Of a DNA stretch of 64,000 nucleotides, positions 1 to 24,131 are shown in pieces. The notes below the pieces were generated by a model, which did not search any database, was not told the DNA's origin, and saw only the letters and a program-made list of their open reading frames with translations. The stretch lies in sequence record NC_041869.1; one strand, given 5' to 3'. Positions within the stretch are counted from its first letter, which is position 1, and every line of letters begins with the position of its first letter. Made by a program: the position numbers and the translations under genes. Source of the DNA: Escherichia phage APECc02.

Positions 1-561
1 CTCCCAGTTAAAATTGATAACTGTGTTGGAGCACCCTACAAGGATAACCATATCATTGCTCGTAAGAGAAGTCAACAGGTCATACATGTCTGTATACTTC
101 GGAGCTACTTCTCCGAAGAACACCACATTAGGCTTAACCCAGGTATACTTTCCTGCGTCTACCTCAGAGTATCCAATGTCCTTAATGACGTCACTTCCTT
201 CATCGTCCTCATAGACTATTTCTGGCAAATACCCGTGGACATGTAAAATATCTTCATGTTTTACACCAGCACGCTCCAGCAAATCATCTACATTGGTGGT
301 AAGGTTGATCACACGACCAGACCAGCGGGAATACCACTCAGCGATCCGAAGATGTGCAAGGTTAGGCTCAACACTGCCTAAAGCTACACGACGTGCATTG
401 TAAAAGTCATGCACCTTATAGTAGTTCTTGGCAAAGGTGTGGATGTTGCACACCTCATCGATGCTGAAATTCTCCCACATTGCAGTGCTACCAGATCGGA
501 AAGTGGGAATACCAGATTCAGCGCTCAAACCAGCACCGGAGATAATAATCAGTCGTCGCAT
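1..561 (-). CDS. Sir2-family NAD-dependent deacylase/NADase-like protein (C-terminus cut by window edge)
   Basis: Reverse ORF running off window start; ATG at 561..559 with GAGGA upstream; translation MRRLIIISGAGLSAESGIPTFR...TTNVDDLLERAG...HVHGYL...VVFFGE...ILVGCSNTV matches the canonical Sir2 motifs (GAGxSxxSGIPxFR, TQNIDxLhxxAG, HG, VVFFGE); no Zn-ribbon cysteines. Confidence 0.7.
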   Translation of the reverse strand, partial: MRRLIIISGAGLSAESGIPTFRSGSTAMWENFSIDEVCNIHTFAKNYYKVHDFYNARRVALGSVEPNLAHLRIAEWYSRWSGRVINLTTNVDDLLERAGVKHEDILHVHGYLPEIVYEDDEGSDVIKDIGYSEVDAGKYTWVKPNVVFFGEVAPKYTDMYDLLTSLTSNDMVILVGCSNTVINFNWE

Positions 562-569
562 AAGTGTCC

Positions 570-920
570 TCAGTAGATGTTTTGTTTAATCTCTATTCCA
601 AACTTTTTAAACGAGTCAGCTGCAAGCATGAATTTACGAGCCGCTGATGGGTTAGAAGTATGCACGAAAATCTTCACGTTGTCAACTACAGGAGGCTTAC
701 CAAATACAAATTTTTCCTCTAGGATGCAGAAGCAATCGTATCCTTCAAAAATTTCTCCCAAGTCGCTGTCAAAATGCCACTCAGAAACTCGTCTATAAAG
801 CTTTCTCTTGTCATTGATGAAATCCATAAACTCAGAAGAGTTCTTCAGCCAAAGAGCATCTTGGAGCCCGTAATTTGACGGATCTCTCAAGTCATCCAGC
901 CACACAATCAACTTCTTCAT
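570..920 (-). CDS. hypothetical protein (116 aa), translationally coupled between RNA ligase and Sir2 genes
   Basis: ORF from track; start overlaps ligase stop by 4 nt; stop 8 nt before Sir2 start; no motif recognised. Confidence 0.5.
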   Translation of the reverse strand: MKKLIVWLDDLRDPSNYGLQDALWLKNSSEFMDFINDKRKLYRRVSEWHFDSDLGEIFEGYDCFCILEEKFVFGKPPVVDNVKIFVHTSNPSAARKFMLAADSFKKFGIEIKQNIY

Positions 921-1852
921 TGCATATAGTCCTCGTTGTGGAAATAGTAGTCAAGTATCTCGCGGCGTTCCTGCTCAAGGAGACAGTTCCACACATCTTC
1001 TGTGTAATTGCTACGAATGAAGTTTACCATGCCGTAAAACTCTTCGTCAACACGTTTAAAGATATCCTCATCCCAAATCTTCCAAGCTTTACCTCTCATT
1101 ACGGCCTTCCGTGCCAAATAGTACGGAGACTTGATCTTCAGCTGCAGATCATAAGGGTAGTAAGGCTTACGAATCATATACCCTTCACCTCTTGTTTCTG
1201 CAGCTAATTCTTTTGCATAACTGAACGGAATTTCACGCACAGTGTGAGGACGTTTTGCACCAAGGTATTTGGCAATCCCATCTAAAGCTGCCTCTGGTAG
1301 CATTATTCCAGAATCATTATATCTGCAACCTATCAAATATGCGCCATGATCTTCCTGAACAATATGCGGATCTGAAGGGTGACAAATTTCAAACATGAAT
1401 GTCATGTTTTCATTGCCCATAACCTTCTTGATAAGATCTAAATTACCACATTGCTCCTGGATGGTTTCCTTTGCGAGGTTACAATATGGAGAATCAAGAG
1501 ATCCGGTTGTTGAGAACAATAGTTCACCTTTATGAGAGGATACCACACCAAGGAATCCGTTCTTTTTCTCTACCGCCGTCACAAGCTTATTGTCAGGCAG
1601 GTTGGTGGAGTTTTCTCCCAAGTTAAACACTTTTGTGAAGGGCCATGCCACAACATTTCCTTCATTACCGACAACAATGCCTCGGCACTCCAGTAAACGA
1701 GGGGACAAATGCCATAAATTGTTGTAAAATACTTTTCTGGCATATTTATAGATCTTTAACCCAAGATCCGGGTAATATCTACTGGTTACAAGACCTTTGT
1801 CAACTAGGTCGTCTGCATTAAAATACTTCATCATACGTTCCTCATTTGTCAT
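917..1852 (-). CDS. ATP-dependent RNA ligase-like nucleotidyltransferase
   Basis: 311 aa ORF; covalent nucleotidyltransferase motifs in correct order: motif I KxNG (EKKNGF), motif IV EGxxxK (EGYMIRK), motif V LKIK; adjacent to kinase and phosphatase genes. Confidence 0.6.
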   Translation of the reverse strand: MTNEERMMKYFNADDLVDKGLVTSRYYPDLGLKIYKYARKVFYNNLWHLSPRLLECRGIVVGNEGNVVAWPFTKVFNLGENSTNLPDNKLVTAVEKKNGFLGVVSSHKGELLFSTTGSLDSPYCNLAKETIQEQCGNLDLIKKVMGNENMTFMFEICHPSDPHIVQEDHGAYLIGCRYNDSGIMLPEAALDGIAKYLGAKRPHTVREIPFSYAKELAAETRGEGYMIRKPYYPYDLQLKIKSPYYLARKAVMRGKAWKIWDEDIFKRVDEEFYGMVNFIRSNYTEDVWNCLLEQERREILDYYFHNEDYMQ

Positions 1853-1895
1853 TTTGTCAGTCTATCCTGCCACACAAATAACCTAGTGTCAACAC

Positions 1896-1924
1896 TTGAA
1901 ATTAACAAAACAGTTAGGTATACT
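1896..1924 (+). promoter_or_regulatory. sigma70-like promoter TTGAAA-17-TATACT upstream of kinase gene
   Basis: -35 at 1896-1901, -10 at 1919-1924, in divergent intergenic region. Confidence 0.4.
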
Positions 1925-1952
1925 ATCGTTGAAATTAAAACGGAGTATTACT

Positions 1953-2363
1953 ATGTCTAAAATGCTATATATCGTGCGTGGTCTACCAGGGTCTGGCAAA
2001 TCAACACTGGCAAATGCGCTATCTTTAGAAGGTCTGTATCCACATTTTGAGAACGACATGTTCTGGTACGACGATGATGGAAATTACAACTGGGATGCAA
2101 GTAAAGTAACACTTGCAGCAAAATGGTGCAAAGATAACGTAGAAGATATGATGCGTATGGGATACGACCGTATCGTGGTAAGTAATACGTTTACAAAAGA
2201 AAAATATGTGCAAGAATATATTGACATGGCGATCAGTCATGGGTATAGTTATACCGTGATCGTGGTTGAAAACCGCCATGGTAATAAAAGCATTCATGAT
2301 GTTCCAGACAGGGTTGTGGATCGTATGGAACGCCAGCTTAAAAATTGCATTAAACTTAAATGA
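1953..2363 (+). CDS. P-loop polynucleotide kinase-like protein
   Basis: ATG at 1953 with GGAG upstream; Walker A GLPGSGKST near N-terminus; small AAA_33/Pnk-kinase-like size (136 aa). Confidence 0.6.
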   Translation: MSKMLYIVRGLPGSGKSTLANALSLEGLYPHFENDMFWYDDDGNYNWDASKVTLAAKWCKDNVEDMMRMGYDRIVVSNTFTKEKYVQEYIDMAISHGYSYTVIVVENRHGNKSIHDVPDRVVDRMERQLKNCIKLK

Positions 2364-2370
2364 GGAATGT

Positions 2371-2925
2371 ATGAAATACTTTGTAACAAGCGACACACAC
2401 TTTCTCCACCAGCGGGTCATGGAGTTCGACTCATGTCAAAAACACAGATCTCAGTATGATCACAATCTTGACAGTATGAATGCGGGAATCATCACCGAGT
2501 GGAACTCTGTTGTGTCACCTGCAGACACTGTGTTCCACCTGGGAGATATTGCGTGCACTAATGATAAGAATATCAACAAATTGCTCCCAGATGTTCTAAA
2601 TATGTTGAACGGACATATTATTCTTGTTCGTGGTAACCATGACACAAGGACGACTGTCAGAATTATGAAAGAGTTCGGTCATGAGGTTGTAGATTATTAC
2701 GAGCTTCGCCACAACAAGAATTTGATCTGTATGAGCCATTACCAGTTTGCAAAGTGGAACAGAAAGCCTCACGGATCAGTCCAACTGTTCGGTCATGCTC
2801 ACGGAACCACACAGCAGTTGTTTGGCAGGCAGTTTGATGTCGGTTGGGATGTGTGGGGGAGACTCTTACCATTAGAAGAGGCATACCGTATTGCAATGAG
2901 TCTTGCTATTGACAGCGGGGAGTAA
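2371..2925 (+). CDS. calcineurin-like metallophosphoesterase (putative 2',3'-phosphatase)
   Basis: ATG 2371 with GAGG upstream; motifs DTHF, GDI, GNHD typical of metallophosphoesterases. Confidence 0.75.
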   Translation: MKYFVTSDTHFLHQRVMEFDSCQKHRSQYDHNLDSMNAGIITEWNSVVSPADTVFHLGDIACTNDKNINKLLPDVLNMLNGHIILVRGNHDTRTTVRIMKEFGHEVVDYYELRHNKNLICMSHYQFAKWNRKPHGSVQLFGHAHGTTQQLFGRQFDVGWDVWGRLLPLEEAYRIAMSLAIDSGE

Positions 2926-2972
2926 TCCCTGCTATTTTAAAGAAAATTGCCACACAAGGAGAATCAGGAGAT

Positions 2973-3323
2973 ATGAAAGATGGGGATAAGCTGCTATATC
3001 TTAAAGTCCCCCTTGAAATACTGTCTATGTCAAAAGTTTTGAATGACACAACTGGGGAGGTTGTTGTTCTTGACTTGTATGACAAGATCGTATACTGCTA
3101 CCTGCACAACTGGTATAAGCTTGGAGGAAGTTCACGCTTCACACCCAGCACAAGGAAAATTGCAGCAGATGTTGGGATAAAGAAAACAAAAGCAGCAGCG
3201 TGCGTTAAAACTTTAGAATGTGCAGGAGTGGTTGAAATATCCACACAAGGGAGAGGTAAAAGATGCACATTTTCCAAAGTTTTGCCACCAGAAGAGGTTA
3301 TTCGAATGTCAACAACTGGTTAG
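2973..3323 (+). CDS. hypothetical protein, possible DNA-binding (helix-turn-helix-like segment)
   Basis: 116 aa ORF immediately upstream of iteron array; segment TPSTRKIAADVGIKKTKAAACVKTLECAGVVE resembles HTH. Confidence 0.4.
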   Translation: MKDGDKLLYLKVPLEILSMSKVLNDTTGEVVVLDLYDKIVYCYLHNWYKLGGSSRFTPSTRKIAADVGIKKTKAAACVKTLECAGVVEISTQGRGKRCTFSKVLPPEEVIRMSTTG

Positions 3324-3397
3324 ACCAGTAAAAACTTAAATATCTGTACTATAAGGATTCGTATGTTTTATGTTCGCTCTGGAACAGAGGTTAGTAA

Positions 3398-3480
3398 CTG
3401 TCCGTGATACGGACACTACTGTCCGTCACGCGGACACATCTGCCCGTAATACGGACACTAACTGTCCGTGATACGGACAC
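3398..3480. repeat. array of four 17-bp palindromic sites TGTCCGT-N3-ACGGACA at 21-bp spacing (iterons/operators)
   Basis: Copies at 3398-3416, 3419-3437, 3440-3458 (one arm degenerate CTGCCCGT), 3462-3480; followed by an AT-rich tract 3481-3600. Confidence 0.75.
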
Positions 3481-3983
3481 ATAAAGAATATAACTAAAAT
3501 AACTAAATAATAAAAAATAAAAGATCTAGTACTTATGGTACTAAGTACATATACTTAACTTATGTAGAATATACTAGATCCTAAGTACCATGTTTTAAAT
3601 TTATTACTTACTATGGGTAGTGTCGGCCCTTCATTGGCACTCGCCTACGAGGGGCGAGATGCCGGGCCTCCCTGGTGCACACAATAACAGAAGTGCATAC
3701 ATGCAGGTCTGTTAACATGTGTGGGAGCGAAGCGATAGCGCAGGCCAAAGGCCGAGCACTGATGTGGACCACCGACGAAAGCTTGCCAGCGCCGTAAGGA
3801 GTCGGTTGAGAGTCTCCCGCGCGAGCTTGGATGAAGTTTATGTGTGGAAACGGACAAGAAGGCCCCTAAATCGCTCCACAGCTATATAAACTATACCAGG
3901 TAAGGCAATCGCACCAGTTTGATAGAAAAGCTCGTTACAAAGCGATACAGTGAGTTTTTCTATAACTTGAAGAGGAGGTAGTT

Positions 3984-4562
3984 ATGAGTCCACGCAAAGA
4001 TGACCGTGAAAAGATTGCAAAACGTTATCAGAATGAAGAACAGATGGAGAAAACTTTCAAGTGGAAGCCAGGTTTCCAGCGTAATCATTCTAACGCTCGT
4101 GATCGTAAGCATCCGGATAAGTGGTTAACACCGCCAAATGATGGCATTCAGGTTGGTGATGAGAAGGAGCTGTCACCTGGAAAAGATGGCAACTACATTC
4201 GAACTAAGGAAGCAGGTCCAAAGGATGACAGCTATCTTGTAGATAAGGTTCTTGACGGTGTTGATGTAGGTGTTGACACTGTACGAAACCTTTTTCTTGG
4301 TTGGTATCGCACAGGGTTTTTCGACATCAAGGCTATTCGTCGTGTTTGTGATATTAAAAAGTCTGCCTACGATGATGATTCCCTACATCGCACTCTGAGA
4401 CAATACTCAGAGAGATACGGTCATCCAGTTATCACTCTTGACGATATTAACGAAGTTATGTATCATGTAGAGGTTGTTGCAGGTAGGTTCGGTGATGCAT
4501 ATCTCGGTATTCTCTCTGCAAAGGATGAGGTAATGTTAAATAAGATTTACTATGAACGCTGA
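3984..4562 (+). CDS. hypothetical protein
   Basis: 192 aa ORF with GAGGAGG RBS. Confidence 0.5.
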   Translation: MSPRKDDREKIAKRYQNEEQMEKTFKWKPGFQRNHSNARDRKHPDKWLTPPNDGIQVGDEKELSPGKDGNYIRTKEAGPKDDSYLVDKVLDGVDVGVDTVRNLFLGWYRTGFFDIKAIRRVCDIKKSAYDDDSLHRTLRQYSERYGHPVITLDDINEVMYHVEVVAGRFGDAYLGILSAKDEVMLNKIYYER

Positions 4563-5080: not shown

Positions 5081-5367
5081 GGTTGTTTTCGTGTATCATG
5101 ATGAATATCCAATTTAAAGATGAATTTGATGGCTTTATCTCCGGATGCTTTGAAACAGGGTTCGGAGAAGGCTGAGTTACCCTTAGAGGGCTTGATAGTG
5201 CACCACACTTAAAATGGTAGGGGCAGCCAGCACATGACGATGTGACCCCAGCCAACCTGTAATAAGGTCGAGCCAAAGCGCGGTAATGGGCTCTGGTAAC
5301 CCACTTGTTGGGTCTTGCTGGTCCAGGACGCTGGACAAGTCGCAGGGAATACCACCCTGCGGCGAAC

Positions 5368-5396
5368 TTGACAATCAGTATTTGCTATGATAAAAT
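5368..5396 (+). promoter_or_regulatory. sigma70-like promoter TTGACA-17-TAAAAT
   Basis: -35 5368-5373, -10 5391-5396, 29 nt upstream of ATG 5425. Confidence 0.5.
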
Positions 5397-5859: not shown

Positions 5860-5934
5860 GCCCTGTTAGCTTAGTGGATAAAGCAGCGGCCTTCTAAGCC
5901 GTTGACACTGGTTCGAGTCCAGTACGGGGTGCCA
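5860..5934 (+). tRNA. tRNA-Arg (anticodon TCT)
   Basis: Manual cloverleaf fold: acceptor GCCCTGT/ACGGGGT, anticodon loop CTTCTAA, T-loop TTCGAGT, encoded CCA. Confidence 0.8.
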
Positions 5935-5938
5935 AATT

Positions 5939-6025
5939 GGGGAGTTATCCCGTAGAGGTAGCGGTGTAGACTGTAAATCTATTGTCATTGCGACTCGGGT
6001 GGTTCGACTCCACCACTCCCCACCA
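5939..6025 (+). tRNA. tRNA-Tyr (anticodon GTA), long variable arm
   Basis: Acceptor GGGGAGT/ACTCCCC, anticodon loop CTGTAAA, T-loop TTCGACT, encoded CCA. Confidence 0.8.
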
Positions 6026-6139
6026 AATTTACATTTTTAAATGCATAAATCATACAGATAATGGCATTGATATTTATCGTCGTTTATACTAGTCACTAAC
6101 TGCTCGAAAATCAGTGTCATTATCAGTATTGTTTATAAA

Positions 6140-6230
6140 TGAGGGTAGGGAGCAATGGTGCTCAAGCGGTCTTGAAAACCGTCCCGTTGAGGATGACTCG
6201 ATGATGGTTCGATTCCATTACCCTCAGCCA
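6140..6230 (+). tRNA. tRNA-Ser (anticodon TGA), long variable arm
   Basis: Acceptor TGAGGGT/ACCCTCA, anticodon loop CTTGAAA, T-loop TTCGATT, encoded CCA. Confidence 0.7.
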
Positions 6231-6328
6231 TATTGTTGACCTTGTAATTAAGCGAAAGCCGGAAGCAGAACCGGATTATCAAATGTTACAGTCGTCATCG
6301 CCGACTAGCAACATGGTCAACATACTGA

Positions 6329-6427
6329 GCTAGGTAAGCCCTTTGGCAAGGGCGAGGATTTTTAATCCTGAAAATAGACGAGGTAGTCGTTGAATACATA
6401 GGTGGTTCGATTCCATCACCTAGCACC
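6329..6427 (+). tRNA. atypical tRNA-like gene (possible tRNA-Lys TTT variant or pseudogene)
   Basis: Perfect acceptor GCTAGGT/ACCTAGC, D-arm GCCC-TTTGGCAA-GGGC, T-arm GGTGG-TTCGATT-CCATC, but anticodon arm is AGGA-TTTTTAA-TCCT (4-bp stem) or 5-bp stem with 5-nt loop, then about 30-nt extra arm; only CC encoded at 3' end. Confidence 0.35.
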
Positions 6428-6432
6428 TTTTT

Positions 6433-6508
6433 GCTGATGTAGCACAATTGGTAGTGCAATTGATTTGTAATCAATAGGTTGCAGGTTCGAGTCCTGCTAT
6501 CAGCACCA
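6433..6508 (+). tRNA. tRNA-Thr (anticodon TGT)
   Basis: Acceptor GCTGATG/TATCAGC, anticodon loop TTTGTAA, T-loop TTCGAGT, encoded CCA. Confidence 0.8.
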
Positions 6509-6509
6509 T

Positions 6510-6584
6510 GGCCCTGTAGCTGGAAGGTTCAAGCAAGCGACTCATAATCGCCAGACGGTGGTTCAATTCCACCCAGGGCCACCA
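6510..6584 (+). tRNA. tRNA-Met/Ile2 (anticodon CAT)
   Basis: Acceptor GGCCCTG/CAGGGCC, anticodon loop CTCATAA, T-loop TTCAATT, encoded CCA. Confidence 0.75.
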
Positions 6585-6595
6585 AATAATAAATA

Positions 6596-6672
6596 CTCCG
6601 CGTAGCTCAGCTTGGTAGAGCGCCTGATTTGGGATCAGGAGGTCGAGTGTTCGAATCACTCCGTGGAGACCA
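6596..6672 (+). tRNA. tRNA-Pro (anticodon TGG)
   Basis: Acceptor CTCCGCG/CGTGGAG, D-stem GCTC/GAGC, anticodon loop TTTGGGA, T-loop TTCGAAT, encoded CCA. Confidence 0.75.
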
Positions 6673-14891: not shown

Positions 14892-15737
14892 GTGAAGAGA
14901 GCTGTATATCCAGTTGAGTATGATCCTCTATTAAGAGTTTTCAACAATCAGTTAAGTTTTTATCAATTTTTAGCACAATATAATCCAGAAATCAATGTTG
15001 GTTTATCAGCCCTGCTGCCACCAACAGAATTCGTTATCGGCAGTGTTCACTATCCATGTAGAACGATTGTAGACTTCTTCGAGAAGATTGCAAAACATAC
15101 AGGCCTGCCAATTGATACTGGTATTTCAACTATCCGTATGGGTGTTATTCTTCTGTTCTTCACAGAGAACCTTGATGAAAGCACTTTAACACTGCAAAGC
15201 GGGGATGTCAATATCACACTCACCCCGTCAGTGTTTAAAGAGGTAGATGCGGCTTTCCAAGTTTCCGTGGCAGAGGGCCATCTATGGGACCCTGTAGGGA
15301 TGCCTAAAAAAGTGACCATAAACGATGAGCAATGCAACATTGTTTATGAAGAAGATACCCAAACTTTCACCATTGAGTGGCCTAAGAAACGTTCTCAGGT
15401 TGTAAATCTTGGGCTGGTTTCTACGATAGCTCCACCGCCTGAACCAGAGCCTGAGCCGCCTGTAGGCCCTACTGAACCCAGTGGTGACGGTGAAGAATCT
15501 CCAGATCCGGCTGCACCGGAAGGCACTGAGCAGGATCCTGAACAGGCACAAGAATCAAGATCTTCTCGCAGTGATGTTGATGCCCTACTACAGCAGGCCG
15601 CAGCTCTTAACAACGAAGATGACAAAAGTGGTTCAAAAGATGCACTCCAAACCTTCGCCAAAGAGTACGGTGTTACCTTAAGTAAGGCAAAAACTTTCCA
15701 AAATATGATGAAAGATTTTGAGGCTGCACTGGCATAA
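14892..15737 (+). CDS. hypothetical structural protein with PEPEPEPP low-complexity linker
   Basis: GTG 14892 with AGGAG RBS. Confidence 0.45.
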   Translation: MKRAVYPVEYDPLLRVFNNQLSFYQFLAQYNPEINVGLSALLPPTEFVIGSVHYPCRTIVDFFEKIAKHTGLPIDTGISTIRMGVILLFFTENLDESTLTLQSGDVNITLTPSVFKEVDAAFQVSVAEGHLWDPVGMPKKVTINDEQCNIVYEEDTQTFTIEWPKKRSQVVNLGLVSTIAPPPEPEPEPPVGPTEPSGDGEESPDPAAPEGTEQDPEQAQESRSSRSDVDALLQQAAALNNEDDKSGSKDALQTFAKEYGVTLSKAKTFQNMMKDFEAALA

Positions 15738-16470: not shown

Positions 16471-16929
16471 ATGCTAAAGGTTAAATGTCAAACAAGGTTC
16501 AACCTAAAGCGCTTAGATCGCTTCTACAAAGACCTTGTGAGACTTGAAAGTAAAACAATAACCTACGGCTTTTATGACGAACCTCACCCGTCAGGCTTAA
16601 ATATGGCAACATTGGCAGCCATTCACAACTTCGGTTGGAACGGGCTGCCTGTTCGCAATTTCATGGAGACAGCCTTTGCATTTCATAGTGCTCAACTGCA
16701 GACTTTGACAGAAAAATTGTTGAGAGCTATGGCTAGAGGATCAAGTGCAGAGGCTATTCTTAAGCAGATGGGGGACACAGGGGCCAAAGCTATCCAGTTT
16801 GTTATTGAGGCTGGGCAGTTTAGTAATCCTACTGTTAGTGAGCAGTGGGCACAAGAAAAGGGCTTCAACGAGGCTATGCGGCATTACGATGTGCTGCTTG
16901 AATCTGCAACCTTTAAAATCGGACAGTAA
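16471..16929 (+). CDS. hypothetical head-tail joining protein
   Basis: 152 aa, GAGGGA RBS. Confidence 0.4.
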   Translation: MLKVKCQTRFNLKRLDRFYKDLVRLESKTITYGFYDEPHPSGLNMATLAAIHNFGWNGLPVRNFMETAFAFHSAQLQTLTEKLLRAMARGSSAEAILKQMGDTGAKAIQFVIEAGQFSNPTVSEQWAQEKGFNEAMRHYDVLLESATFKIGQ

Positions 16930-23246: not shown

Positions 23247-24131
23247 ATGCCAAGCAATATAGTTGATGAAAAAGACCTGTACAAGCCTCAAGAGGTTAAA
23301 TCTCCAAAGGCTGAAAAGGCAGAGCAGCAAACTGAAAGCGATGTAAAGTACACTATGTTTGTCAGCGGTCTTAACTATGGCGGTCGCAATACGGGGATGA
23401 AGGGTAAAAACTTTACTAACGATCTTGCCATTATCTTCGATCAGGTTGAGAATTACTCTTTCAAACATTCTGTTGATAAGACTGGGTTTGCGGTGGAAGA
23501 TAAATCTACCCTGTCAGACCACGCCGTAATTAAAGATGGTGTATTTTCTTTTACTGGTAGGGTAAATACATCCCCACACATAATCTATGAGCAAAACTAC
23601 ATTGATAGGAATACTGACTCTAAAAACCCTGCAGCATCTATGCGACCAGGCGCTGCATTGGAGGCTTTGACTGAGATTATCAATAAGCGACAGTTGGTTT
23701 CTTTGGTTACCGAGGAGAGACTTCTTGAGAACTACATCATAACCAGTCTTTCTGCCAACAAGTCTGTTGGTGAAGGCGCTGCAATGGTGTTTGATGTAGA
23801 ACTTACAGAGTTCCGCACATTCTACTTGAATAAGGTTGTTAATGCAACTGTATACAGCAATCCTAAGAAAGTAGGCAAGACCCAACAAAAAGGCGCTGTC
23901 AACGACTGTAAGAATGGTAGTAACGTAGGTAACAAGAGGGACACAGGAGCATTCGCAGACACTGCATCCACAAACGCTGCAGAGGAGTGGCAGCCATACA
24001 AATCTATGATGTGGACAGATGAAAACGGTGTTACCCAATCGGCTGCGGATTGGTATTATCAGGAATATGGAAGACCTTCTACCATAGTCCCATCTGAGCA
24101 GGGAAACTACAACAAAGTTAACGGGAAATAA
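23247..24131 (+). CDS. hypothetical tail protein
   Basis: ATG 23247 with GGAGAGG RBS; 294 aa. Confidence 0.45.
   Translation: MPSNIVDEKDLYKPQEVKSPKAEKAEQQTESDVKYTMFVSGLNYGGRNTGMKGKNFTNDLAIIFDQVENYSFKHSVDKTGFAVEDKSTLSDHAVIKDGVFSFTGRVNTSPHIIYEQNYIDRNTDSKNPAASMRPGAALEALTEIINKRQLVSLVTEERLLENYIITSLSANKSVGEGAAMVFDVELTEFRTFYLNKVVNATVYSNPKKVGKTQQKGAVNDCKNGSNVGNKRDTGAFADTASTNAAEEWQPYKSMMWTDENGVTQSAADWYYQEYGRPSTIVPSEQGNYNKVNGK

What the first reader, a model, noticed from the sequence alone, without database searches (positions are those of the whole stretch)
3600..3900. GC-rich structured non-coding island upstream of an early gene
Seen in sequence: about 300 bp of locally high GC with many short inverted repeats (for example CTCGCC...GGCGAG, GGCC..GGCC) inside a non-coding interval; the only ORF of 60 aa or more is a 70-aa antisense reading frame with no start context. 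Inference: a structured RNA (sRNA, leader or RNA mimic) or a horizontally acquired fragment.
Basis: inference. Interest (0 to 1): 0.45.

Follow-up and report, generated by a model that had tools for sequence, protein, structure and literature searches.

The report
Conserved folded element beside phage origin
The GC-rich island is a real, strongly conserved, non-coding element about 345 bases long that folds into hairpins, matches no described RNA family, sits beside what looks like the replication origin of an rV5-like E. coli phage, and also occurs in small E. coli plasmids that look like satellites of this phage group.

Summary
Window 3621-3900 is the most GC-rich 250-nt stretch of the 64-kb window (0.57 against a mean of 0.44) and follows a 21%-GC stretch. 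No reading frame is conserved across 11 related phages. The window is a Vequintavirus (rV5-like), 99.9% identical here to phage AlexBoehm.

The conserved unit is larger than reported: 3621 to about 3965. In the most divergent relative, its best parts are 90-94% identical. That equals codon positions 1-2 of the next gene, whose third positions are 68% identical.

Two helices are backed by compensatory changes:
- the first hairpin, P1 (2 double changes);
- the closing stem of a three-way junction (3 double changes); a GNRA loop in the junction switches between GUAA and GGAA.

Rfam 15 has no match.

Homologues occur only in Vequintavirus and in a family of roughly 13.5-kb circular E. coli replicons. 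These carry capsid and tail genes related to Vequintavirus, and I found no paper describing them. In both settings the element lies next to an iteron array and a Rep-like wHTH gene.

Best reading, about 0.4: it is the single-strand-folding flank of a lambda-type origin module, either a primer or activator transcript or a priming signal, shared by helper and satellite. The main rival is a regulatory leader or ncRNA. Function and strand chemistry are untested.

The parts
2973..3323 (+). 116-aa winged-helix gene that may encode the origin-binding initiator
   Evidence: Pfam HTH_36 and DUF6945 match below their cut-offs. PHROG 12838 is labelled 'replication initiation protein'. By tblastn the gene is specific to the genus. 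A sigma-70-like promoter lies at 2909-2938.
3395..3480 (.). Four iterons spaced 21-22 bp apart, each an inverted repeat (TGTCCGTGATACGGACA)
   Evidence: They are not conserved in the divergent relative L003 (identity 0.62).
3481..3617 (.). AT-rich stretch (21% GC) with inverted repeats; candidate DNA-unwinding region
   Evidence: It is not conserved in L003 (identity 0.45).
3622..3671 (+). P1, a bulged hairpin with pairs 3625-3629/3664-3668 and 3636-3646/3652-3663
   Evidence: MFE -28.1 kcal/mol, and this fold makes up 82% of the ensemble. Of 16 pairs, 99% are paired, and 2 pairs change G-C to U-A on both sides in satellites L021 and L037. Identity to L003 is 94%.
3678..3721 (+). Variable hairpin 2 (CACACA..UGUGUG)
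   Evidence: Inverted repeat I1. An 18-nt deletion in rV5 and Pr121LW still leaves a shorter hairpin. The apical pairs are not conserved. Identity to L003 is 0.73.
3718..3725 (+). Conserved motif UGUGUGGG
   Evidence: It is kept in nearly all phages and satellites, with one-base variants in phage B9-1 and three satellites. TGTGTGGR is enriched: 13 found against 0.75 expected in satellite L021, and 16 against 5.3 in the window.
3762..3823 (+). Core: AUGUGGA, then a three-way junction, then GAGUCUCCCGCGCG. The junction has closing stem 3771-3776/3801-3806, an inner GCU-UGCC-AGC hairpin, and a CC-GNRA-GG hairpin with its loop at 3794-3797.
   Evidence: The closing stem has 6 pairs, all paired, and 3 of them changed on both sides; slid controls give 10-56% paired. 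The loop varies between GUAA and GGAA. Covariance model R1 finds one copy in the window and one in each tested satellite of the junction-bearing type, and none elsewhere.
3824..3900 (+). 3' domain holding the conserved motif CCCCUAAAU (3863-3871); its folding is uncertain
   Evidence: Motif AAG(G/C)CCCCUAAAU is kept in the satellites and, with one-base changes, in most phages. The helices proposed here are not consistently supported.
3901..3965 (+). Conserved tail: GCAAUCGCACC, then a 12-13-bp hairpin (3922-3933/3952-3963) with an A-tract arm and a U-tract arm. It may act as a weak two-way terminator. The Shine-Dalgarno site of the 3984 gene follows.
   Evidence: Identity to L003 is 90%. The satellites have a hairpin of the same design with different base pairs at its foot.
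3984..4562 (+). Downstream 192-aa gene of unknown function; a neighbour, not shown to belong to the element
   Evidence: PHROG 12226 only. It has no Pfam or PDB match, and the structure model failed. It is genus-specific and absent from the satellites.

Best explanation
Window 3621-3965 is a conserved non-coding element whose + strand folds into a set of hairpins: P1, a variable hairpin, a three-way junction, a 3' domain and a tail hairpin. Invariant single-stranded motifs separate the hairpins.

It forms the GC-rich flank of a lambda-type origin module. That module has a small winged-helix initiator gene (2973-3323), four iterons spaced 21-22 bp apart (3395-3480), and a 137-bp stretch of 21% GC that could unwind (3481-3617).

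I think it most likely serves the origin. Either the rightward transcript or the + strand exposed by unwinding folds, and a replication factor common to helper and satellite reads it. That factor could be a primase-helicase, RNA polymerase with RNase H, or a host primase. DNA synthesis would start there, as a primer or activator RNA or as an ssi-type priming signal.

A family of plasmid-like satellites with their own, unrelated iterons and Rep carries the same element at the same relative place. This would let them use the same factor.

Shown here:
- conservation of the element;
- absence of coding potential;
- base-paired helices with compensatory changes;
- the layout next to iterons in both settings.

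Inferred:
- that the locus is an origin;
- that the element acts in replication;
- whether the folded strand is RNA or DNA.
For: Non-coding and under selection:
- No ORF is conserved in any frame across 11 phages.
- P1, the core and the tail are 90-94% identical to the most divergent relative. Third codon positions of the next gene are 68% identical, and the upstream iteron and AT-rich regions 45-62%.

Structure:
- MFE z-scores are -3.3 and -3.5 on the + strand.
- P1 has 16 pairs, 99% paired, with 2 double changes.
- The junction's closing stem has 6 pairs, 100% paired, with 3 double changes; slid controls give 10-56% paired.
- In satellite L028 a plain 8-bp hairpin replaces the junction at the same place.
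- An 18-nt deletion in rV5 keeps a hairpin.

Origin context in the phage:
- four iterons spaced 21-22 bp, each with its own dyad symmetry;
- a 21%-GC stretch next to them;
- a wHTH gene in a PHROG labelled 'replication initiation';
- the cumulative GC-skew minimum about 1.5 kb away; the rV5 paper places a skew switch at the matching position (PMC3606486).

Same layout in the satellites:
- at least 7 palindromic iterons (CGGTAAATATTTCCG), then the element, then promoters and a Rep-like HTH_36 protein;
- the iterons differ in sequence from the phage's and the two proteins show no detectable similarity; among these non-coding parts only the element is shared.

Other points that fit:
- The phage has no sigma-70-like promoter within 680 nt upstream. 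This fits an element that does not need a promoter of its own.
- There is a single copy per phage genome.
- The folding strand is the + strand. By standard fork geometry that is the lagging-strand template of a fork leaving the AT-rich region rightward (my inference).
Against: - No origin has been mapped in any Vequintavirus (PMC3606486). The iterons could instead be operators of a repressor.
- The GC-skew minimum coincides with a switch in gene orientation, so it is weak evidence.
- GNRA and UUCG loops are marks of RNA rather than of ssDNA priming signals.
- A 345-nt element with a three-way junction is larger and more complex than known ssi signals (from my knowledge of G4-type and RSF1010 ssi sites).
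- Hairpin modules differ a lot between satellites. That would be odd for a precise priming site.
- No DnaA boxes lie nearby.
- The element also lies early in a long rightward transcription unit, and its tail runs straight into a ribosome-binding site. Both fit a leader.
Confidence: 0.4

Rival explanations
1. It is a regulatory RNA. It could be a cis-acting leader at the start of the long rightward transcription unit, giving read-through (antitermination), processing or stability control, or acting as a platform for a helper-encoded RNA-binding protein. It could instead be a separate non-coding RNA. The satellites would have copied it so that their operon responds to the helper.
For: - The + strand is the sense strand of all neighbouring genes.
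- GNRA (GUAA or GGAA) and UUCG loops are present, and the + strand folds better than the - strand in both phage and satellite.
- The tail hairpin, with an A-tract arm and a U-tract arm, sits about 6 nt before the Shine-Dalgarno site of the next gene and is 90% conserved.
- Invariant single-stranded motifs between exchangeable hairpins suggest sequence-specific recognition.
- In the satellites, terminator-like hairpins follow the element before the next promoters, as for a separate RNA gene.
- The rV5 paper places this region at the start of the transcription unit of genes 81 to 27 (PMC3606486).
Against: - No sigma-70-like promoter is found upstream in the phage within 680 nt, nor in satellite L023.
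- The downstream genes of phage and satellite are unrelated, and in the satellites strong promoters lie between the element and those genes. A gene-specific leader or riboswitch is therefore unlikely.
- No Rfam family matches, even at E = 10.
- In L023 the terminator-like hairpins at the left edge of the array face leftward.
Confidence: 0.3
2. It is an array of selfish or generic palindromic hairpins, in the manner of REP/BIME elements. It would have only a general effect, such as protecting mRNA ends, blocking transcription or binding gyrase, and would spread between phage and satellite by recombination.
For: - In the satellites the region is a string of 30-45-nt hairpin modules separated by UGUGUGGG. 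Different satellites carry different sets of modules.
- One triple-hairpin module also sits inside the Rep coding region of the satellite and in a 2.5-kb ORF-free stretch of the phage.
- TGTGTGGR is enriched on both strands.
Against: - The phage has a single copy.
- P1, the junction and the linear motifs are 90-94% conserved, well above the neutral proxy.
- The junction interior is identical in every phage and in every satellite that carries the junction. That points to a specific function.
- None of the 12 satellite proteins scanned matched a REP-associated (RAYT) transposase family.
Confidence: 0.12
3. It is the DNA packaging recognition (pac) site of these headful-packaging phages, copied by the satellites so that the helper terminase packages them.
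For: - Vequintaviruses are circularly permuted and package by the headful mechanism (PMC8407724; PMC13211470).
- The satellites have no large terminase.
- This element gives the two most significant nucleotide matches between satellite and phage.
Against: - Double-stranded pac sites need no hairpin pairing, yet five compensatory changes keep pairing.
- P1 and the junction are each missing from some satellites.
- The element is far from the structural and terminase genes.
- A 161-aa satellite protein with an HTH could be the satellite's own small terminase.
- Other shared patches lie in a different phage region.
Confidence: 0.08
4. It encodes small proteins, as annotated in some records: 31 aa at 3620-3715, and 56 aa at 3719-3889 (rV5 ORF 78).
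For: BASEL and rV5 records annotate hypothetical proteins here. Several indels are multiples of 3.
Against: - The 56-aa frame has a stop at codon 3 in phage B9-1 and an early stop in the IMG/VR relative.
- The 31-aa frame is shifted by -1 and +1 indels in that relative.
- The antisense frames carry stops in most phages.
- Starts are GTG, and I saw no Shine-Dalgarno-like sequence directly upstream (read by eye).
- Several records annotate nothing here.
Confidence: 0.02

Closest known systems
Lambda-type origin (oriλ: four dyad-symmetric iterons bound by the O protein, an AT-rich region, then a flanking palindrome); also the G+C-rich flank of plasmid RK2 oriV
   Same: Four iterons about two helical turns apart, each with its own dyad symmetry. 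An adjacent AT-rich stretch. A GC-rich, palindrome-bearing flank. An adjacent small wHTH protein with a PHROG 'replication initiation' label. The lambda and RK2 layouts are from my own knowledge.
   Different: The flank here is 345 nt and its structure is conserved through compensatory changes. The iterons lie outside the initiator gene. No origin activity has been shown.
Single-strand initiation (ssi) signals and primer RNAs at origins (phage G4 oric hairpins, RSF1010 ssiA/ssiB, ColE1 RNA II, phage T4 oriE/oriF primer transcripts)
   Same: A folded single strand next to the unwinding region of an origin. Elements with different initiators could share it because the replication machinery reads it, not the initiator. 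The known systems are from my own knowledge.
   Different: It is larger and more complex than ssi sites. It has no sequence similarity to any of them that I could test. No promoter is placed as in ColE1 or T4. It carries RNA-type tetraloops.
Cis-acting phage and satellite leader RNAs (HK022 put antiterminator RNAs; the satellite P4 leader with CI RNA and its seqA/seqB/seqC sites)
   Same: A structured untranslated RNA near the start of a long operon in a phage or satellite. The short repeated motifs (UGUGUGGG, with CCCACACA copies upstream in the satellite) recall the complementary seq sites of P4. The known systems are from my own knowledge.
   Different: No sequence or Rfam match. It is not placed just after a recognisable promoter. 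put RNAs are about 70 nt. P2, the helper of P4, does not share the P4 leader, whereas here helper and satellite share the element.
REP/BIME palindromic arrays of E. coli
   Same: In the satellites, strings of short hairpins are separated by conserved linkers, and the module content varies.
   Different: The phage has a single copy. There is a unique three-way junction and long invariant linear motifs. No RAYT transposase family matched. The modules are not dispersed around the genome.

Membership tests
Any Rfam 15 RNA family (4,227 models) | The covariance model reaches its gathering score, or at least gives a convincing sub-threshold match | tested here: not met
   The whole window searched at gathering scores gives only tRNAs. 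Window 3300-4050 at E up to 10 gives only an AT-rich match to rli43 (23.9 bits against a cut-off of 100), mostly outside the island, plus two short chance-level matches. Satellite copies give nothing relevant.
Riboswitch or gene-specific cis-regulatory leader | The conserved fold is linked to the same downstream gene family across genomes | tested here: not met
   The phage has a 192-aa genus-specific protein downstream. The satellites have 49-aa and 70-aa ORFs and a Rep-like protein, with sigma-70 promoters in between. tblastn finds no similarity.
Riboswitch or gene-specific cis-regulatory leader | An expression platform (terminator, or pairing that hides the Shine-Dalgarno site) with an alternative pairing | tested here: inconclusive
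   A conserved tail hairpin lies about 6 nt before the Shine-Dalgarno site. CGAGCUU (3822-3828) could pair with AAGCUCG (3928-3934), but no covariation bears on it (read by eye).
Lambda-type iteron origin | An array of directly repeated initiator sites at helical spacing, next to an AT-rich region | tested here: met
   Four copies spaced 21, 21 and 22 bp at 3395-3480. Window 3481-3617 is 21% GC.
Lambda-type iteron origin | A cognate initiator protein encoded nearby | tested here: inconclusive
   The 116-aa wHTH protein matches HTH_36 (22.8 bits against a cut-off of 25) and DUF6945 (24.9 against 28). PHROG 12838 is labelled 'replication initiation protein'. It could equally be a repressor.
Lambda-type iteron origin | Replication starts there | not testable with these tools
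   This needs marker-frequency or 2D-gel mapping. The rV5 paper found no origin (PMC3606486).
ssi-type priming signal or origin primer RNA | A folded single strand whose hairpins are kept by selection, placed beside the unwinding region | tested here: met
   Five compensatory pairs in two helices. The element starts 4 nt after the AT-rich stretch.
ssi-type priming signal or origin primer RNA | Primer synthesis or primase binding at the site | not testable with these tools
   This needs a biochemical or in vivo assay.
REP/BIME-like repeated palindromes | Many dispersed copies in the genome | tested here: not met
   There is one copy in the window and none in the rest of the AlexBoehm genome, by nhmmer and by the covariance model.
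Type III toxin-antitoxin RNA (ToxI) or pseudo-ToxI mimic, as in the related phage ΦTE | Tandem, near-identical repeats of about 34-36 nt | tested here: not met
   Tandem Repeats Finder reports no array inside 3621-3965, only the iterons and AT-rich repeats upstream.
Small protein-coding gene | An open frame kept across relatives | tested here: not met
   Every frame has stops or frameshifts in at least one of the 11 phages.
Host-derived (horizontally acquired) fragment | A homologue in the host chromosome | tested here: not met
   There are no matches on chromosomes in 5,426 complete E. coli genomes; the 6 matches are all on small plasmids. Two pattern scans of 185,579 species genomes found nothing.

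The most novel reading that the evidence does not exclude
The element is the shared cis-acting handle through which an undescribed family of plasmid-resident satellites plugs into the replication or gene-expression machinery of Vequintavirus.

The satellites are about 13.5 kb. They have their own capsid, baseplate, neck and tape-measure genes and their own Rep and iterons. They have no integrase and no large terminase.

The element would be a new class of folded RNA or single-stranded DNA: exchangeable hairpins strung between invariant linear motifs, read by a helper or host factor.
Probability: 0.35. Interest if true: 0.85.

Novelty: new variant of a known kind. Interest (0 to 1): 0.68.

Why it matters
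No origin or regulatory RNA has been described for rV5-like phages, which are widely isolated and used as therapy and biocontrol candidates. This element, together with the iterons next to it, gives a concrete and testable candidate origin module.

The element matches no Rfam family and has clear covariation. It is therefore a candidate new structured nucleic-acid family.

Searching with it also uncovered small E. coli replicons that look like satellites of these phages and share only this module and a few other short patches at the DNA level. If that holds, the element marks the point where helper and parasite use the same machinery. It would be a direct entry into how such satellites sense or exploit a large lytic phage.

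Tried and rejected
Searches for the family:
- Rfam at gathering and permissive thresholds, on phage and satellites, found nothing. ARAGORN found no tRNA or tmRNA in the island.
- Distant blastn in phages found only Vequintavirus, at 90% identity or more.
- Both flanking proteins are genus-specific, so they gave no syntenic loci in other genera. One divergent IMG/VR relative was useful.
- Loci of Mydovirus, Seunavirus and phage TH18, fetched through the phosphoesterase gene, have a different gene order and no copy of the element.

Collection scans:
- The metagenome scan with a 20-mer found four Vequintavirus contigs (one of them the IMG/VR relative) and one chance match.
- Two scans of species-representative genomes found nothing.
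- IMG/VR scans found only the one relative or nothing.

Ideas dropped:
- That the 480-nt leader of the satellite capsid operon is a paralogue of the element. The local alignment score is within the shuffle range. Only short motifs are alike.
- That a 35-nt satellite match at window 15553-15587 is regulatory. It lies inside a coding region.
- That the small GUGGACCAC hairpin is well supported. It has one double change but does not beat the shuffles, and it competes with the junction stem.
- That the RNAalifold consensus of the whole element can be trusted. The deletion variants upset it and it showed little covariation, so I report only helices checked by hand.

Other dead ends:
- The AlphaFold model of the downstream 192-aa protein had mean pLDDT 35 and is unusable. 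The protein has no PDB or Pfam match.
- There is no enrichment or cluster of DnaA boxes.
- Literature searches found no description of the element, of an origin in rV5-like phages, or of the satellites.

Full report
**What the window is.** The region 3300-4000 is 99.9% identical to Escherichia phage AlexBoehm (BASEL collection, genus Vequintavirus, rV5-like). It is 90-99% identical to 117 phage records. Nearby genes on the + strand are a polynucleotide kinase-like ATPase, a metallophosphoesterase, a 116-aa winged-helix protein (2973-3323), the island, a 192-aa protein of unknown function (3984-4562), several small ORFs, and a tRNA cluster (5860-6672). An RNA ligase and a Sir2 gene lie on the other strand to the left.

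**Check of the observation.** The island is real.
- GC is 0.54-0.56 in 200-nt windows, against 0.34-0.45 in the flanks.
- With 250-nt windows, the maximum of the whole 64-kb window starts at 3621 (0.572; mean 0.441, sd 0.033). The stretch just before it, 3481-3617, is only 21% GC.
- The + strand folds better than every dinucleotide shuffle: z = -3.3 for 3600-3900 and z = -3.5 for 3618-3968. The - strand gives z = -2.6.
- The 70-aa antisense frame is the only ORF of 60 aa or more.

**Not coding.** I translated all six frames in 11 phages that span the diversity of the genus.
- The 56-aa frame annotated in rV5 and in the BASEL records (3719-3889) has a stop at its third codon in phage B9-1 and an early stop in the IMG/VR relative.
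- The 31-aa frame is broken by -1 and +1 indels in that relative.
- Both antisense frames carry stops in most phages.

**True extent and conservation.** The most divergent relative is an IMG/VR contig (L003) whose downstream protein is 83% identical. It shows a sharp edge. The iterons and the AT-rich stretch upstream are not conserved (0.62 and 0.45 identity). From 3621 onward, identity is as follows:

| Part | Identity |
|---|---|
| P1 | 0.94 |
| variable hairpin | 0.73 |
| core | 0.90 |
| 3' domain | 0.69 |
| tail, up to the ribosome-binding site | 0.90 |
| next gene, codon positions 1 / 2 / 3 | 0.90 / 0.94 / 0.68 |

The best parts of the island are therefore as constrained as amino-acid-determining positions. 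The unit spans about 3621-3965, not 3600-3900.

**Homologues outside the phages.** A distant blastn against 5,426 complete E. coli genomes found no chromosomal match. It did find matches on small circular plasmids of 13.2-13.7 kb, plus a 39.6-kb record that is a trimer of such a unit.
- These replicons encode a major capsid protein (PHROG 29), a tape measure protein (PHROG 5255), and a Dit-like baseplate protein that is 50% identical to the product of window 23310-23933.
- They also encode a Neck1/tail-completion-like protein (44% identical to window 16477-16899), a Rep-like HTH_36 protein, a resolvase-type HTH protein and some small ORFs.
- They have no integrase and no large terminase.
- Their capsid protein family was found only in E. 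coli, on contigs of about 13.4-14.3 kb. The largest cluster has 441 member sequences.
- I found no paper describing them.

They look like plasmid-resident satellites of Vequintavirus. That is an inference from gene content and from the shared DNA.

**Structure evidence.** The satellite copies supply the divergence that the phages lack.
- P1 (3622-3671). Satellites L021 and L037 change GGCA/UGCC to GUCA/UGAC, and CUCGCC/GGCGAG to CUCUCC/GGAGAG. Of 16 pairs, 99% are paired and 2 changed on both sides; 4 of 500 shuffles reach this, and slid registers give 33-51% paired.
- Closing stem of the three-way junction (3771-3776 with 3801-3806). ACCGAC/GUCGGU becomes GCUGCC/GGCAGC. Three of 6 pairs changed on both sides, all cells are paired, 0 of 500 shuffles reach the covariation score, and slid registers give 10-56% paired.
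- All five double changes trace to one split, phage against satellite, so they are few independent events. Even so, 10 of the 15 substitutions in these two segments fall into compensating pairs (my count).
- The tetraloop at 3794-3797 varies only between GUAA and GGAA, both GNRA.
- In another satellite type (L028, L030, L031, L035, L036, L040) a plain hairpin, GUCCGGAU..AUCCGGAC, replaces the whole junction at the same place.
- In rV5 and Pr121LW an 18-nt deletion shortens hairpin 2 but leaves a hairpin.
- The small GUGGACCAC hairpin and the helices of the 3' domain are not well supported.

**Architecture.** Across phages and 16 satellite copies, several linear motifs are kept:
- UGUGUGGG;
- AUGUGGA;
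- GAGUCUCCCGCGCG (altered to GGGAUUCCGCGCGC in satellites L030 and L031);
- AAG(G/C)CCCCUAAAU;
- a UAAAC/UUAAC loop;
- GCAAU(C/U)GCA;
- a final hairpin with an A-tract arm and a U-tract arm.

The hairpins between them are exchanged, added or lost. In the satellites the region grows to 500-700 nt of 30-45-nt hairpin modules separated by UGUGUGGG. Some modules carry C(UUCG)G loops and show compensatory changes between satellites. TGTGTGGR is enriched: 13 found against 0.75 expected in one satellite, and 16 against 5.3 in the window. UGUGUGGG could pair with CCCGCGCG through three G-U pairs and close a multi-branch junction, but neither side varies informatively (my reading).

**Not a known family.**
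- Rfam 15 gives nothing at gathering scores or at E up to 10, for either phage or satellite.
- There are no tandem repeats inside the element, which excludes a ToxI-like array.
- A covariance model of the junction and an nhmmer profile of the core find one copy per phage genome. They find none in loci from Mydovirus, Seunavirus or phage TH18.
- Scans of metagenomes, IMG/VR and species-representative genomes found only Vequintaviruses.

**Context and mechanism.**
- In the phage, the element follows four iterons spaced 21-22 bp apart, each a dyad (3395-3480), and a 137-bp stretch of 21% GC. These follow a wHTH gene in a PHROG labelled 'replication initiation'. From my knowledge of lambda, this is the layout of a lambda-type origin.
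- The cumulative GC-skew minimum lies about 1.5 kb to the left. The rV5 paper reports a skew switch at the matching place but ties it to gene orientation, and it defines no origin (PMC3606486).
- In the satellites, the homologous element follows at least seven palindromic iterons of a different sequence. It precedes sigma-70 promoters, two small ORFs and a Rep-like HTH_36 protein.
- The two wHTH proteins show no detectable similarity. So there are two modules with different initiators and iterons but the same folded flank.
- The simplest reading is that the flank is read by machinery common to both: helper or host replication proteins, or RNA polymerase.
- The folding strand is the + strand. 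By fork geometry this is the lagging-strand template of a fork moving right from the AT-rich region (my inference).
- No sigma-70-like promoter lies within 680 nt upstream in the phage.

I therefore put an origin-linked role first, at about 0.4: a primer or activator transcript, or an ssi-type priming signal.

**Main rival.** A regulatory RNA is nearly as likely, at about 0.3.
- GNRA and UUCG loops are typical of RNA.
- The element lies on the sense strand, early in the long unit of genes 81 to 27 (PMC3606486).
- Its tail runs into a ribosome-binding site.
- In the satellites, terminator-like hairpins follow it before the next promoters.

A gene-specific leader or riboswitch is unlikely, because the downstream genes are unrelated. 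In satellite L023, two terminator-like hairpins at the left edge face leftward and a weak leftward promoter lies to the right. Antisense transcription there cannot be excluded.

**Lesser rivals.**
- A REP/BIME-like hairpin array (0.12). The single copy and the high conservation argue against it.
- A pac site (0.08). These phages do package by the headful mechanism (PMC8407724; PMC13211470), but compensatory pairing would be unexplained, and some satellites lack P1 or the junction.
- Small proteins (0.02).

**Novelty and verdict.** Its 'structured RNA' idea is supported as far as structure goes. Its 'acquired fragment' idea holds only in the sense of exchange with satellites. The element is a new family of folded non-coding sequence, found so far only in one phage genus and its presumed satellites. 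Its function is untested. The link to the satellites is the most interesting result and was not part of the original finding.

Noticed in passing
window 3395-3617, with the gene at 2973-3323: Four dyad-symmetric iterons spaced 21-22 bp apart are followed by 137 bp at 21% GC, directly after a small wHTH gene in a PHROG labelled 'replication initiation'. This is a candidate lambda-type origin, and no origin has been defined for rV5-like phages.
   Followed up: partly
window 5180-5365: A second GC-rich (0.50-0.53) non-coding island. A strong sigma-70-like promoter (5368-5396) lies after it, not before it. It has no Rfam match and a weak fold signal (z = -1.9). It is conserved at about 93%, together with its flanks, in the IMG/VR relative.
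   Followed up: partly
loci L021-L025, L028 and L030-L040 (for example NZ_CP020521.1, NZ_CP035869.1, CP134895.1; NZ_CP043822.1 is a trimer): A family of circular E. coli replicons of 13.2-14.3 kb. They carry capsid, Dit-like baseplate, Neck1-like and tape-measure genes (25-50% identical to Vequintavirus proteins), their own Rep and iterons, and no integrase or large terminase. They look like an undescribed plasmid-resident phage satellite. The largest capsid-protein cluster has 441 member sequences.
   Followed up: partly
L026 34471-36995 (MZ501048.1 90470-92994; outside the window): A 2.5-kb ORF-free stretch where the two gene arms converge. It has four CTCTTCAGG copies within 550 bp. It shares a 24-nt patch and a triple-hairpin module with the satellite.
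   Followed up: partly
L021 10884-10934: A triple-hairpin module (CUGGC..GCCAG, GUGAC..GUCAC, CCCUUCGGG) lies inside the linker-coding part of the satellite's Rep-like gene. It is 86% identical to a non-coding phage sequence, as if hairpin modules can insert into coding DNA.
   Followed up: no
window 6329-6427: ARAGORN calls a 99-nt tRNA with a four-base anticodon (atcc). Its Rfam tRNA score is only 35.5 bits. Public records call it tRNA-Lys or 'OTHER'.
   Followed up: no
window 1-3000: An RNA-repair-type gene set (RNA ligase, kinase-like ATPase, metallophosphoesterase, Sir2) sits next to the candidate origin and 3 kb from the tRNA cluster.
   Followed up: no
whole window and L021: The octamer TGTGTGGR is over-represented on both strands: 16 found against 5.3 expected in the window, and 13 against 0.75 in the satellite. 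In the satellite most copies are in non-coding DNA, often as the 3' arm of CCACACA..UGUGUGG hairpins.
   Followed up: partly
GenBank records MG0656xx: Eighteen records named 'Campylobacter phage' are more than 97% identical to E. coli Vequintaviruses across this locus. This suggests a wrong host label or mixed phage stocks.
   Followed up: no
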